This document shows positions 10,067-26,857 of a stretch of 64,000 bases of DNA, piece after piece. Within the stretch, counting starts at the first letter, position 1, and the number at the start of each line of letters is the position of its first letter. This stretch comes from a virus. Both the position numbers and the translations under genes were made by a program. The DNA is taken from positions 1 to 64,000 of the IMG/VR virus record IMGVR_UViG_3300042691_044682; one strand, given 5' to 3'. Below the pieces are notes generated by a model. It did not search any database. It worked only from the letters and a program-made list of their open reading frames with translations, and was not told where the DNA came from.

Positions 10067-10459
10067 TCATCGCCGCGCCCTCTTCTTCGCCGCCGGCTTC
10101 TTCCGTGCCCGGGGCTCTGCCGCCATGGCTAGGTCGTAGGCCGCCTGGGCCGCGGCCGCCATCGCGGGCGTGACACCGGAGATCTCCAGCGCCAGGCGGT
10201 CCTTCTCGACGAACGCGTCGAAGTCTTTCACCGCGAAGAGGAGGTTCTCCAGCACGACCTTCGCCCGCGGCTCGCCACGGCCGCGCGCGTCAATCGAGAA
10301 CTCGATCGCGACCACGCCGCGCAGCGGCACCCAGCCGGCAGGCTCGCCGCACCAGACCAAGACGGCGCTGTTAAACGCAGCACGCCCCCCGACCACGCGG
10401 ATGTCGCCCCGCTCGGGCGGCGGCGAGGGACGGGACGGGTCAAGGATGGTCGGGCTCAT
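10067..10459 (-). CDS. Hypothetical protein
   Basis: 130 aa ORF packed in the operon. Confidence 0.6.
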   Translation of the reverse strand: MSPTILDPSRPSPPPERGDIRVVGGRAAFNSAVLVWCGEPAGWVPLRGVVAIEFSIDARGRGEPRAKVVLENLLFAVKDFDAFVEKDRLALEISGVTPAMAAAAQAAYDLAMAAEPRARKKPAAKKRARR

Positions 10460-10462
10460 GGC

Positions 10463-10744
10463 TCAGCCCTCCGTCCGCGGGAACCACGGCGAGACCGGGT
10501 TCGCGATCGCGCGCACCAGGCGGATGGTGGCGTCCTCGTAGGCGGTGCGCGCCATGGCAAGGTCGCGGGCCTGCTGCGGGAAGAGATGCCCCACGGCGCG
10601 CAGGGCGGCTTCGACGCGCCCGTGCAGCTCCGCCGCCTTCGCCTCGAAGGCCTTGGCCTCGTTCATGAGTCGGCGGCAGAGCGCGTCGATCTCGGCCTGG
10701 GTCAGATCCCGGTAGCCGGTGATCTTGGTGTGCTGGTCCTTCAC
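10463..10744 (-). CDS. acb2: Acb2/Vs.4-like cyclic-nucleotide sponge (anti-CBASS)
   Basis: QHTKITGYRDLTQAEID...MN..K at the N-terminus and LAMART..E.A...LVRAIANP.S at the C-terminus match the Acb2 pattern; 93 aa. Confidence 0.8.
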   Translation of the reverse strand: MKDQHTKITGYRDLTQAEIDALCRRLMNEAKAFEAKAAELHGRVEAALRAVGHLFPQQARDLAMARTAYEDATIRLVRAIANPVSPWFPRTEG

Positions 10745-10746
10745 GC

Positions 10747-11241
10747 TCAGCCCTCCTTTGCCTTGGTGACGGCGACGGCCGCATCATCCACCGACACGAC
10801 CCCCAGGTTTTTCGCCAGCCCACCCCGAATGGCGCGCGGCGTGTCGCGGCGGGGGCAGATGCCCTGCCGGCAGATAACCTCGTACCCGTCCGGGCACGCG
10901 CAGTTGCCCCCAACCCGCGATATGGCCTGGGCAGAAGGCGGGCGCAGCAGGGCGCCGACCTGGATCTCGTCCCGCATGAGCCAGATGGCGTCGGCGGCGT
11001 GCTTCAGCGCACGCGCCACGGCCTCGGCCCGGCGGCCGTTCTCACCGCGCAGGGGCCGAAGCGGCTGCAGATCAGCCCGGATGGCGTCGATCAGGTGGGC
11101 GGCGTCGCCGAGCGCACAGCGCATCGCCACGGGGTCGTGGCCGACCTTCTCGCGGTACGCCCGCATGGCGGCCAGCGCCTGCTGCTCACGCTGGCCCACT
11201 TGGCGCTCGGCGGGAATCGGATCGTTCGGGTCGTCGCTCAT
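10747..11241 (-). CDS. Hypothetical protein
   Basis: ATG 11241 overlaps the upstream stop. Confidence 0.6.
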   Translation of the reverse strand: MSDDPNDPIPAERQVGQREQQALAAMRAYREKVGHDPVAMRCALGDAAHLIDAIRADLQPLRPLRGENGRRAEAVARALKHAADAIWLMRDEIQVGALLRPPSAQAISRVGGNCACPDGYEVICRQGICPRRDTPRAIRGGLAKNLGVVSVDDAAVAVTKAKEG

Positions 11242-11714
11242 CGCACCCCGAACCTCTGCTTCGCCGCGGCGAGCACCCCGTCCCTGGACGACGCGACGGC
11301 GCGATCGATCGTCACCAGCGAGGCCGGACGACGCGCCCAGGCCGGCAGCCTGATCAGCACCGCGGTCTTGCCCTGCAGCTTCGTCTCCACGGCTTCGGCG
11401 GCCTTGGTCTGCGTCACCTCCATCCAGGGAAAGAGCGGCGTGACGAGCCGCGCCGCCGCGGTGTGCAGGACGTCGCGCAGCTTGCGCCCCTGCGCATCCA
11501 TCTCCGTGGCGGCGCGGATCCGCAGCCAGCCCTCCTGCTCGCCCATGCCCTCCTCCACGACCACGCGCGTTTCGGCGGTCCAGCCGAGCGTGGTGAGGAT
11601 CATCCCCGTGAACAGGATCGAGACGCCGAAGCCCTTGTCCTTCTTCACAATGGACAGGCGCACCTGGTCCTGCGCCCGCCCGGGCAGTGGGAACTCGATC
11701 GGCGCCCAGGTCAT
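11238..11714 (-). CDS. Hypothetical protein
   Basis: ATGA-coupled ORF. Confidence 0.65.
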   Translation of the reverse strand: MTWAPIEFPLPGRAQDQVRLSIVKKDKGFGVSILFTGMILTTLGWTAETRVVVEEGMGEQEGWLRIRAATEMDAQGRKLRDVLHTAAARLVTPLFPWMEVTQTKAAEAVETKLQGKTAVLIRLPAWARRPASLVTIDRAVASSRDGVLAAAKQRFGVR

Positions 11715-12142
11715 GCCACCACCGCCGCCGCATAGGTCGCCGGGGCCCGCTTATCCACCGCGAAGCCTCGCGCGCGCAGCCACTCGATGACGTCCTCCTC
11801 GCGGTCCGACGAGAGGCGGTCGAAGAGCGCCAGCACCTGACCCAGCCGGCGATGAACGGCCGGGTAGTTGATATCGACGGACTCCCGCAGGCGGATCAGC
11901 TGCAAGAGGCGGTCGGTTTCCTTCTGGCGGTCCTGCATGCCCCGGCGATAGCCATCGGCTTGGCCACGATAACGCCGGGCTTCGTTTTCGGCCGCCTCCA
12001 GCGCGGCCCGAAGATCGGCCACCAGCACCCCGAGCGCCGTGATCCGCTCCGCCGCCCAGGCGGCGGCCTCGATCACGTCGTCGGAACCGCTCGCGACCCG
12101 CCCAGCGTCACAGAGCAGTTCCATCCTCATGTCGTCGGTCAT
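11711..12142 (-). CDS. Hypothetical coiled-coil protein
   Basis: ATGA-coupled ORF. Confidence 0.65.
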   Translation of the reverse strand: MTDDMRMELLCDAGRVASGSDDVIEAAAWAAERITALGVLVADLRAALEAAENEARRYRGQADGYRRGMQDRQKETDRLLQLIRLRESVDINYPAVHRRLGQVLALFDRLSSDREEDVIEWLRARGFAVDKRAPATYAAAVVA

Positions 12143-12432
12143 GTTCAGGATCCTCCTCGCTCGTTTCCTCTCCCGGCCCCGGCGCCTCGCCGAGGTCGAA
12201 GGTGATGGTCACCAGGACGCGGCGCCGCCAGCGCATGACGCCCGCCTGGCCGCCGCCGGCGACGACGTCGCCAAGGGTGCGCCAGCCGAGCGCCGGGCCG
12301 CACCAGACGTCGATGCCGGCGCCCAGGCCCTCGAGGTCGCCGCGGATGGTGCCCACGGGGCGCTCGACGTCCTCGCTGGGCGGCTGGAGCGGGGCGAACA
12401 GGTCATCGATCACTGCTCACCCCGCTCCCTGC

Positions 12433-12804
12433 CGGCGTTGCGGTGCCTTGCCCTGCGAAGCCCTGCCTTGCCTGCGATGCCTTGCGATGCCCAGCCTCGC
12501 CTCGCCTTGCCTTGCCTGCCCTGCCCGGCCACGCCAGACCCAGCCCCGCCAGGCCATGCCTGCCGTGCCCCGCCATGCCCGGCCACGCCGTGCGCCGCGG
12601 TGCCTCGCCTTGCCTGCGCTGCCATGCCCCGCCAAGCCCCGCCATGACTAGCCATGCCTGCGGTGCCCTGCCCCGCCACGCCAGACCCAGCGACGCCTTG
12701 CCTTGCCTGCCCTGCCCGGCCACGCCAGACCGTGCCGTGCCATGCCTTGCCTGCCATGCGGTGGCACGCCTCGCCTAGCCTCGCCTAGCCCGGCGCCGCC
12801 TGCG
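12433..12804 (-). ncRNA. GGY-NN pentamer array A (8 units; putative guide RNAs)
   Basis: 68 in-phase pentamers (mostly GGC-NN; GGT/CGC/GTC variants) in units of 9,8,9,8,10,8,8,8, each preceded by GGCA/CGCA. Confidence 0.85.
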
Positions 12805-13237
12805 TCGGACCTTCCACCAGCGCCCCCATTGCCGCCTCGATGTGCGGCGCCAGGGACGCGTAGCGGCGGTACCGCTCGAGGACGCGATCGACATCGAGCC
12901 GCATCCGCCGCAGGAGCACCTCCATGTCATCCTCGTCCTGCAGGACGGCGGTGATGGTCCGGTAGGTGTTCCTGGCGACGGTCACGTAGGCGCGGACGGG
13001 CACCAACGCATCGTCCGGCCGCGGCAGCATCGTCACCGCGGCGCGGATCACCCGCCCGGCCTCGATCAGCAGCAGCTTCGCCTGCGCGTCGTCCGCATCC
13101 CAGGTGAAGGCCGCGTGGAGCGCCGTGTTGGAGCTCCGCGCGAAGTCGATCACAGCCTCCTTGGTGAGGACGCCGCCGTTCATCTGGCGGACGACCTCGA
13201 GCTCGGCGAGCTGCGACTGGGTCAGCATCCTGCTCAC
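12785..13237 (-). CDS. Accessory protein coupled to the RAMP gene
   Basis: GTG overlaps the RAMP stop (GTGA); LTKEAVIDFAR...LHAAFTWD motif; 3' end overlaps array A. Confidence 0.8.
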   Translation of the reverse strand: MSRMLTQSQLAELEVVRQMNGGVLTKEAVIDFARSSNTALHAAFTWDADDAQAKLLLIEAGRVIRAAVTMLPRPDDALVPVRAYVTVARNTYRTITAVLQDEDDMEVLLRRMRLDVDRVLERYRRYASLAPHIEAAMGALVEGPTQAAPG

Positions 13238-13926
13238 GGCCGCTCCTGGATCCGGAAGCTGCCCCAGCCGACGCCGGCGCTGTTCTTGCTGTCCGCCCGG
13301 CCCTCGCCGATGCCGACCTGCTCGCCCACCCGCGACATCAGGTTCGCGATGTCGGTGGCGGTGAACTGGTCGGCGTCGAAGCGGACCGTCACGTCCATCT
13401 CCCACTCGCGCCACATGGGCCGGGTGCGGATGTCGATGACCCCCGTCGCGTTGCGGGTGGGCAGGTCGCTGCGGATGGGCTCGGGGCCGAGGATGCGCAC
13501 CAGCGGCGTGCCGTCGATCCGGTCGAAGCCGTGCGGCTCCACGAAGACCGACATCTTCGCCAGCGTCATCTTGAAGTTCACGAGCCGGCAGGCGGAGATC
13601 ATGCCGCTGCGGAAGGCCCCGGCATGGACGCCGTCCCAGCCATCGGTGGAGATGTGCCGGGCCTCGTTGAAGGCGGCGTCGAAGTCCTTCGCGTCGCGCT
13701 TCTTCTTGCCGCGGGCGGTGGACCCGGCGGCCTGCTTCTCCATCATCGCCTGCATGGCCTTCGCGGGGAACCGCGAGATCACCAGCGGCGCGGTGCCGAT
13801 GATGTGGAAGGTCACCATGCGCATGTTGGGCGCGGTGATGGTGATCGGCTGGGCGCCGTCGCCCAGCTCGTCGCCGCGCCCCTTGGCCGATCGCTTGGCC
13901 TTGGCGCCGGCAGTCATCCCATCCAT
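13234..13926 (-). CDS. Stand-alone Cas7/RAMP-like protein (Vipr-like)
   Basis: 230 aa; beta1 VTFHIIGTAPL, VHAGAFRSGM helix and C-terminal Gly-rich loop VGIGEGR...GVGWGSF; AAGGA RBS before ATG 13926. Confidence 0.8.
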   Translation of the reverse strand: MDGMTAGAKAKRSAKGRGDELGDGAQPITITAPNMRMVTFHIIGTAPLVISRFPAKAMQAMMEKQAAGSTARGKKKRDAKDFDAAFNEARHISTDGWDGVHAGAFRSGMISACRLVNFKMTLAKMSVFVEPHGFDRIDGTPLVRILGPEPIRSDLPTRNATGVIDIRTRPMWREWEMDVTVRFDADQFTATDIANLMSRVGEQVGIGEGRADSKNSAGVGWGSFRIQERP

Positions 13927-13980
13927 GATGTCGATCCTTCGTTCAGAAGATCCCCGGGCGGCCAATCCGCCTGGGGTGGT

Positions 13981-14014
13981 ACGGGGAGCGGGTTCCAGGC
14001 CCGCTCCCCGTTTT
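13981..14014. terminator. 12-bp perfect hairpin at the 3' end of array B
   Basis: ACGGGGAGCGGG-TTCCAGG-CCCGCTCCCCGT, followed by T's on the + strand. Confidence 0.65.
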
Positions 14015-14019
14015 CGTGC

Positions 14020-14319
14020 CGGCCTCGACCGGCCTGGCCTTGCCTCGCCGAGCCGAGCGAAGCCCGACCGCGCCTAGCCACGCCTGCCGTGCCCGGCCGT
14101 GCCTTGCCAGTCCACGCCCTGCCTGCCGTGCCCGGCCGCGCCAGTCCTCGCCCTTCCAGTCCTAGCCAAGCCTGCCGCGCCATGCCGAGCCCCGCCTGTC
14201 CGTGACTAGCCATGCCTGCGGTGCCTCGCCACGCCCTGCCACGCCTAACCAGGCCTCTACACGCCTCGCCTGCCGTGCCACGCCCGGCCTAGCCCCGCGA
14301 AACGCAGCCAGGCCCCGAC
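14020..14319 (-). ncRNA. GGY-NN pentamer array B (6 units; putative guide RNAs)
   Basis: 56 in-phase pentamers in units of 9,10,8,9,7,13 separated by GGCA/CGCA. Confidence 0.85.
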
Positions 14320-14360
14320 ACGGCTCAATGAAAGACATTTCAATGTGATCCTGTCCAGCG

Positions 14361-14386
14361 GAAAAATACATCTAGATGTGTTTTTC
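14361..14386. promoter_or_regulatory. AT-rich palindrome upstream of array B
   Basis: GAAAAATACATCTAGATGTGTTTTTC; 26 bp with one mismatched pair. Confidence 0.55.
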
Positions 14387-15233
14387 ACGCAGGGTCGATC
14401 GGATCCTCCGGCGGCGCCGGCACAGGCGGACGCTCCGTCCCGCCCTCCATGAACTCCACCAAGCGCTGGTACGCCTCCAGCTCCGCCGTCGGCATCTTCG
14501 CGAAGTCCAGCACCAGCTTCCGCTCCGTCTGGGTCACCTCGTGCTGGTGCTCGATCGGCGCCCCATCGACCCCCGACAGCTCCACCCGCTTCGGCCGATC
14601 CTCCATCCCCAGCGCCTTGCGCCGCTGCACCTGGATGCTCTCGGCCAGCCGCGTCAGCGCCGTGATCTTCGACGCGATCGCGTCCTTCCCATCCGCCAGC
14701 ACCTCCAGCACCTCGAGGTCGGGGTCCTTGTGGTCGGTCATCACGAACAGGAGCTTCGTCACGTGCCGGTGCAGCTGGTCGAACGTCTCGGACAGCTGGT
14801 CGATCCGCCGGAGGTCGCGCAGCACCCCCACCTTCATCACCTCGGCCACCCGGTCGATCGTCAGCTCCCGCGCCTCGGCCACCAGCGAGGTGGGCTGATT
14901 ATTTTCCTGATCTTCTGGGTCCGAGGGGTCCGAAAAATCGGACGAATGGTCCGAGCGCTCCTTGGGAGCCAGCTTTTCCCTGCGGTCCGAGGGGTCCGAG
15001 GGCTCGGACTTTGGGCGGCTGGCCTCGTCGTGTTCGAGGACGGCGCGGGCGACGGCGGCTGACTGTGCGGCGGCGAGGGCGGCGGGGGAACGGGCCCAGC
15101 CTTCGCTCACGGCGCGCTTGCGGATGGCCTTTTCGGAGACGTTGAACTTGGCGGCGAGAGCGAGGTTGGAGACTGTCCCCATCTCCCACTCGGCCCGGAG
15201 GGCGAGCCATTCCTCGGGGCTGAGGGCGGGCAT
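14385..15233 (-). CDS. terS: Terminase small subunit
   Basis: N-terminal HTH (LAAKFNVSEKAIRKRAVSEGW) and ELSGVDGAPIE motif. Confidence 0.8.
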   Translation of the reverse strand: MPALSPEEWLALRAEWEMGTVSNLALAAKFNVSEKAIRKRAVSEGWARSPAALAAAQSAAVARAVLEHDEASRPKSEPSDPSDRREKLAPKERSDHSSDFSDPSDPEDQENNQPTSLVAEARELTIDRVAEVMKVGVLRDLRRIDQLSETFDQLHRHVTKLLFVMTDHKDPDLEVLEVLADGKDAIASKITALTRLAESIQVQRRKALGMEDRPKRVELSGVDGAPIEHQHEVTQTERKLVLDFAKMPTAELEAYQRLVEFMEGGTERPPVPAPPEDPIDPA

Positions 15234-26731: not shown

Positions 26732-26825
26732 GCCCCCGGCGCCGAAACGCCGGGGGCCGCTGGAGCCTTGCAGTGCCGAGCCCAGCCAAGCCATGCGCTA
26801 CCCCGCCTGGCCTGCCGCACCGGCC
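26732..26825 (-). ncRNA. Orphan single-unit GGY-NN RNA (unit C)
   Basis: GGCA plus 10 pentamers (26812-26763), 10-bp hairpin at 26732-26757, promoter immediately upstream. Confidence 0.7.
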
Positions 26826-26828
26826 ACG

Positions 26829-26857
26829 AGAATCACACAGAACTAGGTTCCTCTCAA
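26829..26857 (-). promoter_or_regulatory. Sigma70-like promoter for the orphan unit
   Basis: TTGAGA-N17-GATTCT. Confidence 0.5.

What the first reader, a model, noticed from the sequence alone, without database searches (positions are those of the whole stretch)
14275..14319. Unit B1 independently decodes to a second serine-recombinase motif (GLCFGYRV)
Seen: GG CT TG TT GG TA CG GT AC = G-L-(C/W)-(F/L)-G-Y-R-V-T. This resembles the GG-x-x-(Y/F)-G-Y-(R/D)-V motif at the start of the recombinase domain of large serine recombinases. Unit B4 (14172-14128: TT TA CT AG GA CT GC CG AC = (L/F)YL(R/S)(D/E)LART) loosely recalls the L(F/Y)LxDLAxKT helix of the same family, which is weaker evidence. Inference: one array multiplexes guides against one gene family.
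Basis: partly seen in the sequence, partly recalled or inferred. Interest (0 to 1): 0.85.

Follow-up and report, generated by a model that had tools for sequence, protein, structure and literature searches.

The report
VIPR guide RNA against serine integrases

Summary
On the minus strand, 14319-14275 is nine five-base units whose variable pairs read GG CT TG TT GG TA CG GT AC.

The locus is a VIPR system sitting between the phage's small and large terminase genes:
- a Cas7-like Vipr protein, related to SUSP1 Vipr in PDB 36pp;
- a conserved partner gene;
- two GGC-NN arrays on the same strand, joined in the "staggered" style.

Under the published rule (read two bases, skip one), B1 matches 18/18, in frame, codons 147-155 (GLCFGYRVT) of a 590-aa large serine recombinase in a Beijerinckiaceae MAG. 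It matches 16-17/18 at the same codon in seven more recombinase genes.

B6 maps to codon 5 (YARFSSDNQ, the catalytic serine). B4 maps more weakly to codon 122. B1 lies 25 codons after B4, in the same frame. Order shuffles of B1 never reached the observed best match (0/150). B2, B3, B5 and array A show no signal in this gene family.

No single gene was shown at DNA level to meet the 80% threshold for all three guides, and expression could not be tested.

VIPR, its code and silencing of a satellite's serine recombinase are already published, so this is a new member of a known kind. The scan has met VIPR before on other DNA (e1-6000052, e1-3327540).

The parts
14275..14319 (-). vrRNA unit B1: nine pentamers, NN = GG CT TG TT GG TA CG GT AC. 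This is the guide against the GLCFGYRV(T) codons of large serine recombinases.
   Evidence: Sequence. Exact in-frame target in L001. Shuffle tests.
14271..14274 (-). 4-mer GGCA junction between B1 and B2. The same [G/C]GCA 4-mer separates every unit, giving the one-base phase slip of a 'staggered' array.
   Evidence: Unit parsing. Fig. S18 legend of bioRxiv 10.64898/2026.04.26.720920.
14020..14319 (-). Array B, six units: B1 14319-14271, B2 14270-14217, B3 14216-14173, B4 14172-14124, B5 14123-14085, B6 14084-14020. 44 of 56 anchors are GGC or GGT.
14128..14172 (-). Unit B4, NN = TT TA CT AG GA CT GC CG AC. It gives a weak match to the L-[FY]-L-K-D-L-A-x-K codons (helix after the catalytic domain), 25 codons upstream of the B1 site.
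14020..14084 (-). Unit B6, 13 pentamers. It decodes to VYARFSSDNQRDR, the catalytic-serine motif at codon 5 of the same recombinases.
13981..14011 (-). 12-bp GC hairpin closing array B. Its stem GGGAGCGGG is the same as in the hairpin after array A.
   Evidence: -30.7 kcal/mol, z = -3.1.
13234..13935 (-). vipr gene: a RAMP/Cas7-like protein of 233 aa.
   Evidence: Profile hit to PDB 36pp_D 'SUSP1 Vipr protein', E = 1.5e-4. AF2 model with pLDDT 82.7. The 50 listed Foldseek PDB matches (15 with E <= 0.001) are CRISPR-Cas effector complexes or Cas7-fusion effectors (type III Csm/Cmr, III-D, Cas7-11/gRAMP, type VII). phrog_4652.
12785..13237 (-). Accessory (vap-like) gene of 150 aa, overlapping the vipr stop.
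   Evidence: A homologue lies directly downstream of vipr in 25 of 26 related viral loci. phrog_15946. No Pfam match.
12433..12804 (-). Array A, eight units with the same grammar. It begins inside the 3' end of the vap-like gene and ends in a hairpin at about 12385-12430.
14320..14384 (-). AT-rich spacer with an imperfect palindrome, between the terS stop and B1. It is a candidate promoter or operator, and this was not shown.
   Evidence: No sigma-70 consensus was found.

Best explanation
B1 is the first guide unit of a phage-encoded VIPR array.

Mechanism, inferred from the published VIPR work. The array is transcribed on the minus strand together with, or upstream of, vipr. One Vipr protomer binds each GGC anchor and presents the adjacent two bases. 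The resulting filament binds double-stranded DNA by pairing two bases and skipping one.

Target, shown here. B1's read bases equal the sense strand of codons 147-154(155), G-L-C-F-G-Y-R-V(-T), of a sub-lineage of large serine recombinases. This stretch sits at the junction between the catalytic domain and the recombinase domain. The skipped base falls on the wobble position. Units B6 (catalytic serine motif, codon 5) and, less surely, B4 (codon 122) address the same genes.

Likely consequence, inferred. The phage silences the integrase or excision recombinase of rival prophages, satellites or integrative elements in an alphaproteobacterial host (Acetobacteraceae- or Beijerinckiaceae-like). Synonymous mutations cannot provide escape.
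For: VIPR membership:
- The Vipr family profile hits SUSP1 Vipr (PDB 36pp) at E = 1.5e-4.
- The fold is that of Cas7-type RAMPs.
- The partner gene is syntenic in 25/26 related loci.
- GGY-NN arrays lie on the vipr strand in 22/26 related loci and never on the other strand.

Target:
- The B1 pattern has only 2 exact hits in genome contigs. One is in frame at GLCFGYRVT of a 590-aa protein with Resolvase + Recombinase + Zn_ribbon_recom domains.
- Seven further recombinase genes in Beijerinckiaceae genomes match 16-17/18 at the same codon.
- Order-shuffle tests on sets not chosen by B1: z = 4.0 with 0/150 shuffles reaching the observed maximum, and z = 3.0 with 6/200.
- The best B1 site falls at codon ~147 in 57 of 93 genes, and 25 codons after the B4 site in 34. 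It lies 142-143 codons after the B6 site in a class-wide sample.
- B6 and B1 both reach >=80% in the same genes.
- There is no serine recombinase in the phage record, and no self match above 67% for B1.

Published rule, threshold and precedent: bioRxiv 10.64898/2026.04.26.720920, 10.64898/2026.04.26.720927 and 10.64898/2026.10.15.759431.
Against: - No RNA data: transcription, processing sites and the ends of B1 are unshown.
- Three of B1's nine anchors are not GGY, so Vipr loading on this unit is uncertain.
- In 401 Beijerinckiaceae genomes the total number of hits with <=2 mismatches (31) equals that of the reversed-pattern control (about 32). Only the location of 8 of them carries the signal.
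- B1 reaches >=80% in only 2 of 79 and 1 of 80 viral recombinase loci, so the real target lineage is narrow and poorly sampled.
- No gene was shown at DNA level to match B6, B4 and B1 together at >=80%. The best case, P0153, is a protein-level upper bound.
- The host is inferred, not known.
Confidence: 0.8

Rival explanations
1. B1 is a decayed relic or a leader. It descends from a recombinase-directed guide, but with three degenerate anchors at the array's 5' edge it is no longer loaded or used. Only B6 and similar units are active.
For: Anchors GTC, CGT and CGC within nine units. B1 is the outermost unit, next to the AT-rich spacer. There is no expression evidence.
Against: The pairs that follow the degenerate anchors (GG, TT, GG) still match the target exactly in L001, which is not expected of a drifting relic. 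The VIPR paper notes that internal degeneracy of vrRNA repeats is frequent. Other units also carry GGA, GTC or CGC anchors.
Confidence: 0.12
2. The match is chance. A G-rich dinucleotide series happens to spell a glycine-rich peptide found in a very large protein family.
For: On a uniform-composition estimate (my arithmetic: 2 x 596e9 / 4^18), roughly ten or more exact 18-base hits are expected in 596 Gb. The second exact hit (L002) lies outside any long ORF. The total of <=2-mismatch hits equals the control.
Against: Order-shuffled B1 never reaches the observed best. The best sites pile up at one homologous codon, at a fixed 25-codon distance from B4 and 142-143 codons from B6. B6 of the same array independently decodes the catalytic motif of the same family, with z = 25 on a set chosen by motifs outside all three footprints.
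Confidence: 0.03
3. The pentamer arrays are not guide RNAs but DNA-level elements of the packaging module, such as terminase-binding (pac) repeats or G-rich structural DNA. They do lie between terS and terL.
For: Their position between the small and large terminase genes. The GG-N3 spacing could in principle form two-tetrad G-quadruplexes (my inference).
Against: Arrays travel with vipr, not with terminase genes, in 22/26 related loci and always on the vipr strand. The variable pairs carry in-frame matches to foreign genes, which a pac site has no reason to do.
Confidence: 0.02

Closest known systems
VIPR systems with staggered vrRNA arrays (bioRxiv 10.64898/2026.04.26.720920, text and fig. 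S18 legend)
   Same: A Vipr RAMP protein plus one accessory gene. GGY-NN pentamer arrays flank them on the same strand. Units abut with a one-base overlap or slip. The system is phage-borne. Targets follow the read-two, skip-one rule with the skip on the wobble base. There is no self-targeting.
   Different: This is a high-GC (71%) phage record whose Vipr is only remotely similar in sequence to SUSP1 Vipr (E = 1.5e-4 with a profile). There is no conserved ~40-nt tail after each unit. Instead each whole array ends in one GC hairpin. The VIPR type (I-VII) could not be assigned, because the paper's tables are not held.
SUSP1 VIPR silencing of the F5 satellite excision recombinase (bioRxiv 10.64898/2026.10.15.759431)
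   Same: A vrRNA reads near-invariant codon positions 1-2 next to the catalytic serine of a serine recombinase of a rival element. The proposed effect is a block of excision that synonymous mutation cannot escape.
   Different: Here the target is a large serine recombinase (Resolvase + Recombinase + Zn ribbon, about 550-590 aa). Up to three units of one array address three separate motifs (codons 5, 122, 147). The rival element itself is not identified, and nothing has been tested experimentally.
Class 1 CRISPR Cas7 backbone filaments (Csm3/Cmr4, type VII Cas7, Cas7-11)
   Same: A RAMP fold, and one protomer per fixed-length stretch of guide with periodic unpaired positions. All 50 listed Foldseek matches of the Vipr model are CRISPR-Cas effector complexes or Cas7-fusion effectors (type III Csm/Cmr, III-D, Cas7-11/gRAMP, type VII).
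   Different: There is no CRISPR repeat-spacer array, no cas genes and no adaptation module. The guide period is five with only two bases read. TM-scores are only 0.33-0.50.

Membership tests
VIPR system | Vipr protein: a minimal RAMP (RRM core, G-rich loop) homologous to characterised Vipr | tested here: met
   The profile of 25 homologues hits PDB 36pp_D 'SUSP1 Vipr protein' at E = 1.5e-4 over the G-loop region; the single sequence gives E = 0.012. AF2 pLDDT is 82.7. The Foldseek matches listed are CRISPR-Cas effector complexes or Cas7-fusion effectors (type III Csm/Cmr, type VII, Cas7-11).
VIPR system | Tandem GGY-NN pentamer repeats (>=4 units) in the intergenic DNA flanking vipr, on the same strand | tested here: met
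   Arrays at 14020-14319 and 12433-12804. 44/56 anchors in array B are GGY. Related loci carry arrays on the vipr strand only, in 22/26.
VIPR system | Adjacent accessory (vap) gene | tested here: inconclusive
   A 150-aa gene overlaps the vipr stop and is syntenic in 25/26 relatives. Homology to the named vap1-6 could not be checked. There is no Pfam match and only a weak PDB hit, 37sn_A.
VIPR system | Natural targets obey the one-base-skip rule at >=80% NN match, in coding DNA, with the skip on the wobble position | tested here: met
   B1 matches 18/18 in frame in L001 and 16-17/18 in seven more genes. B6 matches 24-25/26 in frame.
VIPR system | No self-targeting by its own guides | tested here: met
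   The best self match for B1 is 12/18, for B4 13/18 and for B6 19/26 in the 92-kb record. The record has no PF00239 match.
VIPR system | vrRNAs are expressed, processed to about 50-100 nt and bound by Vipr; binding silences transcription | not testable with these tools
Rfam has no matching family.
Large serine recombinase (the target gene family) | N-terminal Resolvase catalytic domain with the Y-A-R-x-S-S motif, followed by Recombinase and zinc-ribbon domains | tested here: met
   P0001 has PF00239 at 3-138, PF07508 at 173-287 and PF13408 at 312-365. The B1 site is residues 147-155, between the first two.

The most novel reading that the evidence does not exclude
The array is a deliberate multi-site anti-integrase programme. 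Several guides of one staggered array are tuned to different invariant motifs of large serine recombinases (catalytic serine, the helix after it, the domain junction). The phage would thereby lock down or exclude a whole lineage of integrative rivals in Acetobacteraceae- or Beijerinckiaceae-type hosts, and an escape mutant would have to change three functionally constrained peptides at once. The exact end of the B1 match at the GGCA junction would also be the first target-based evidence for unit boundaries in staggered arrays, which the discovery paper did not confirm by RNA sequencing.
Probability: 0.3. Interest if true: 0.5.

Novelty: new member of a known kind. Interest (0 to 1): 0.35.

Why it matters
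This is an independent natural example, in a distant high-GC alphaproteobacterial phage, that VIPR guides read codon positions 1-2 of conserved enzyme motifs. It also shows that integrases and excision recombinases are a recurrent target of inter-element warfare. It offers a compact test case (three guides, one gene) for two open questions: how staggered arrays are cut into units, and how many mismatches VIPR tolerates. It adds no new principle beyond the 2026 preprints.

Tried and rejected
- Exact scans of IMG/VR for B1, for full B6, and for a fixed-spacing B4+B1 pattern all found nothing.
- No relatives are drawn for a virus record, so a Beijerinckiaceae MAG reached through L001 served as the centre instead.
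- The other eleven units (B2, B3, B5, A1-A8) gave no signal against the recombinase genes. All fourteen units were then scanned against eleven loci that hold a target recombinase, seven of them stretches of 7-20 kb. B2, B4 and seven A units had no hit at >=80%. Apart from the B1 and B6 sites, only three isolated hits at or just above the 80% line appeared, for B3, B5 and A7.
- The arrays of 26 related vipr loci contain no recombinase-directed guides at the three motif sites, only scattered 14/16 hits. The trio is therefore specific to this phage among those sampled.
- A search for a gene matching all three guides used 120 Acetobacteraceae-like proteins, 25 class-wide loci and 80 more viral loci. 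It gave only a protein-level upper bound (P0153: 22/26, 15/18, 16/18).
- The simple scan found no sigma-70 promoter or intrinsic terminator. There was no Rfam family.
- No supplementary tables of the VIPR paper are held, so the VIPR type was not assigned.
- The idea that the arrays encode a pentapeptide-repeat protein was dropped, because frames are broken by stops and by the 4-mer junctions.

Full report
**What is at the coordinates.**
The window is 71% G+C. On the minus strand, 14319-14275 reads GTC-GG GGC-CT GGC-TG CGT-TT CGC-GG GGC-TA GGC-CG GGC-GT GGC-AC, followed by the 4-mer GGCA.

Only two places in the 64 kb show five-base periodicity: 12433-12804 and 14020-14319. There the identity at distance 5 reaches 0.54-0.70, against 0.29 +/- 0.06 elsewhere. 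Each array splits into units of 7-13 pentamers separated by a 4-mer [G/C]GCA.

Two caveats:
- Three of B1's nine anchors are not GGY.
- The last pair AC also ends units B2, B4 and B5, so it may belong to the junction rather than to the guide.

**What the locus is.**
The arrays flank two minus-strand genes that lie between a small-terminase-like gene (14385-15233) and the large terminase (8142-9851). The contig is a 92-kb IMG/VR virus record.

Evidence on the 233-aa gene at 13234-13935:
- It has 4931 homologues, none of them with a Pfam domain on record.
- A profile built from 25 of them hits one PDB entry, 36pp 'SUSP1 Vipr protein', at E = 1.5e-4 over the glycine-rich C-terminal part.
- The AlphaFold model (pLDDT 82.7) finds CRISPR-Cas effector complexes and Cas7-fusion effectors (type III Csm/Cmr, type III-D, type VII, Cas7-11/gRAMP) in every listed match.

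Evidence on the rest of the locus:
- The 150-aa downstream gene recurs directly after vipr in 25 of 26 related viral loci.
- In 22 of those 26 loci, GGY-NN arrays lie on the vipr strand. None lies on the opposite strand.
- Both arrays end in GCCGGCA plus a strong hairpin with the same stem.

This is the anatomy of a VIPR system as described in bioRxiv 10.64898/2026.04.26.720920. The 4-mer junctions fit that paper's 'staggered arrays', in which adjacent vrRNAs overlap by one base (fig. S18 legend). I checked it against the papers and the tests above.

**Testing the B1 claim.**
Under the published rule, the NN pairs are read and one target base is skipped. B1 therefore specifies GGNCTNTGNTTNGGNTANCGNGTNAC.

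Exact scans:
- IMG/VR gave no hit.
- 596 Gb of genomes gave two hits.
- One hit (L002) lies outside any ORF of 80 aa or more and is not a recombinase.
- The other (L001, a Beijerinckiaceae MAG) lies in frame at codons 147-155, GLCFGYRVT, of a 590-aa protein beginning MRAAIYARYSSDLQ. That protein carries Pfam Resolvase 3-138, Recombinase 173-287 and Zn_ribbon_recom 312-365.

The site is thus at the junction between the catalytic and recombinase domains, not inside the Pfam Recombinase model. In an alignment of six such proteins, G146, G147, G151, Y152 and V154 are invariant.

**Is it more than chance?**
- In 401 Beijerinckiaceae genomes, hits with up to 2 mismatches (31) are no more numerous than those of the reversed pattern (about 32). 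Bulk counts are therefore uninformative.
- However, eight of the 31 lie at the same codon of homologous recombinases, at 16-18/18.
- On 79 viral-contig recombinase genes retrieved by N-terminal motifs, not by B1, the mean per-gene best in-frame match of B1 exceeds order-shuffled B1 by z = 4.0. No shuffle in 150 reaches the observed 15/18. Antisense matches show nothing.
- On a second set of 80 loci, retrieved by motifs outside all three footprints, the values are z = 3.0 for B1, 3.8 for B4 and 25 for B6. B2, B3 and B5 lie between -0.7 and 1.1.
- The best B1 site lies at codon ~147 in 57 of 93 genes, and the best B4 site at ~122 in 53. The two are exactly 25 codons apart in 34 genes.
- In a class-wide sample, the B1 site sits 142-143 codons after the B6 site.

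**Co-occurrence.**
- B6 without its last pair has six exact metagenome hits. All are at the N-terminus of such recombinases.
- In L038, B6 (24/26), B4 (13/18) and B1 (14/18) lie in one frame in the order B6, B4, B1.
- B6 (22/26) and B1 (15-16/18) both pass the paper's 80% threshold in three gene copies of genome G298, one of G218 and one viral contig, L053.
- B4 never passes it (maximum 14/18).
- The proteins closest to the three decodes come from Acetobacteraceae (Sediminicoccus, Roseomonas, Falsiroseomonas and others). One of the named Vipr homologues, at 64% identity, is annotated from Roseococcus.
- At protein level, which is an upper bound because Leu, Arg and Ser codons are ambiguous, P0153 would allow 22/26, 15/18 and 16/18. 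P0138, P0153 and P0189 spell GLCFGYRV exactly. Their DNA could not be fetched.
- B1 reaches 80% in only 2/79 and 1/80 viral genes. It therefore addresses a narrow sub-lineage, whereas B6 is broad (23/79 and 20/80).

**Self and context.**
- The phage record has no Resolvase-domain gene.
- It has no site matching B1, B4 or B6 above 73%.
- The target genes sit next to tyrosine recombinases (L001), or next to a second, convergent serine recombinase and an IS1595 transposase beside kdpDE (L148).
- They also sit at the ends of many prophage contigs.
- They are therefore integrases of mobile elements.

**Mechanism.**
Shown here:
- family membership of Vipr;
- the array grammar;
- in-frame, sense-strand target matches for B1 and B6, with the skipped base on the wobble position.

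Taken from the papers, not tested here:
- One Vipr protomer binds each GGY and presents the NN.
- The filament binds dsDNA by a gapped hybrid wrapped around the non-target strand.
- Binding silences transcription on either strand.
- SUSP1 uses this to silence a satellite's serine recombinase and block its excision.

Inferred for this locus: the phage represses the integrase or excision recombinase of rival integrative elements.

**Verdict.**
The observation and the core of the interpretation hold. The finding is nevertheless a new instance of a published system with a published type of target. The scan has already met VIPR on two other genomes. What it adds is three units of one staggered array converging on three motifs of one gene, and a target match that ends exactly at a unit junction.

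Noticed in passing
window 10463-10783 (-): A 106-aa protein matches Pfam PF24729, the Acb2/Tad1 hairpin domain (E = 2.9e-8, above the cut-off), and phrog_717/29522. It is a candidate anti-CBASS nucleotide sponge, in the same terS-terL insert as the VIPR module.
   Followed up: partly
window 26732-26857 (-): A lone unit with the same grammar: GGCA plus about 10 pentamers (NN = CA GG AG AT TT TG TC AC AA TC), followed by a GC hairpin and a T-run, 12 kb from vipr. It is a candidate orphan vrRNA. Its best self match is 15/20, and no target was sought elsewhere.
   Followed up: partly
window 13981-14011 and about 12385-12430 (-): Both arrays end in GCCGGCA followed by a hairpin with the shared stem GGGAGCGGG (-30.7 and -40.9 kcal/mol; z = -3.1 and -5.5). 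This may be the array's 3' cap, a terminator or a processing signal, in place of the per-unit tail of SUSP1 vrRNAs.
   Followed up: partly
window 12433-12804 and 14085-14270 (-): Eleven units (A1-A8, B2, B3, B5) have no identified target. They show no signal in recombinase genes; in the loci around the targets, B3 and B5 each gave one isolated hit at or just above the 80% line (A7 a third) and the rest none.
   Followed up: partly
L148 (G298:C5:2189000-2208999), 10254-13520: Two convergent large serine recombinase genes sit side by side next to kdpD/kdpE and an IS1595 transposase. Both carry a B6 site at 22/26. The same genome has three copies of the B1/B6-matching gene.
   Followed up: partly
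window 13234-13935 (-) and its homologues: This Vipr clade is very large and well conserved: 4931 database clusters at E <= 1e-5, and 120 listed at 60-74% identity. Where a source gives a name, it is only 'hypothetical protein'. Named sources include Roseococcus, an Acidobacteriaceae MAG, a Rhodocyclaceae MAG and Cyanophage Cy-LDV1.
   Followed up: no
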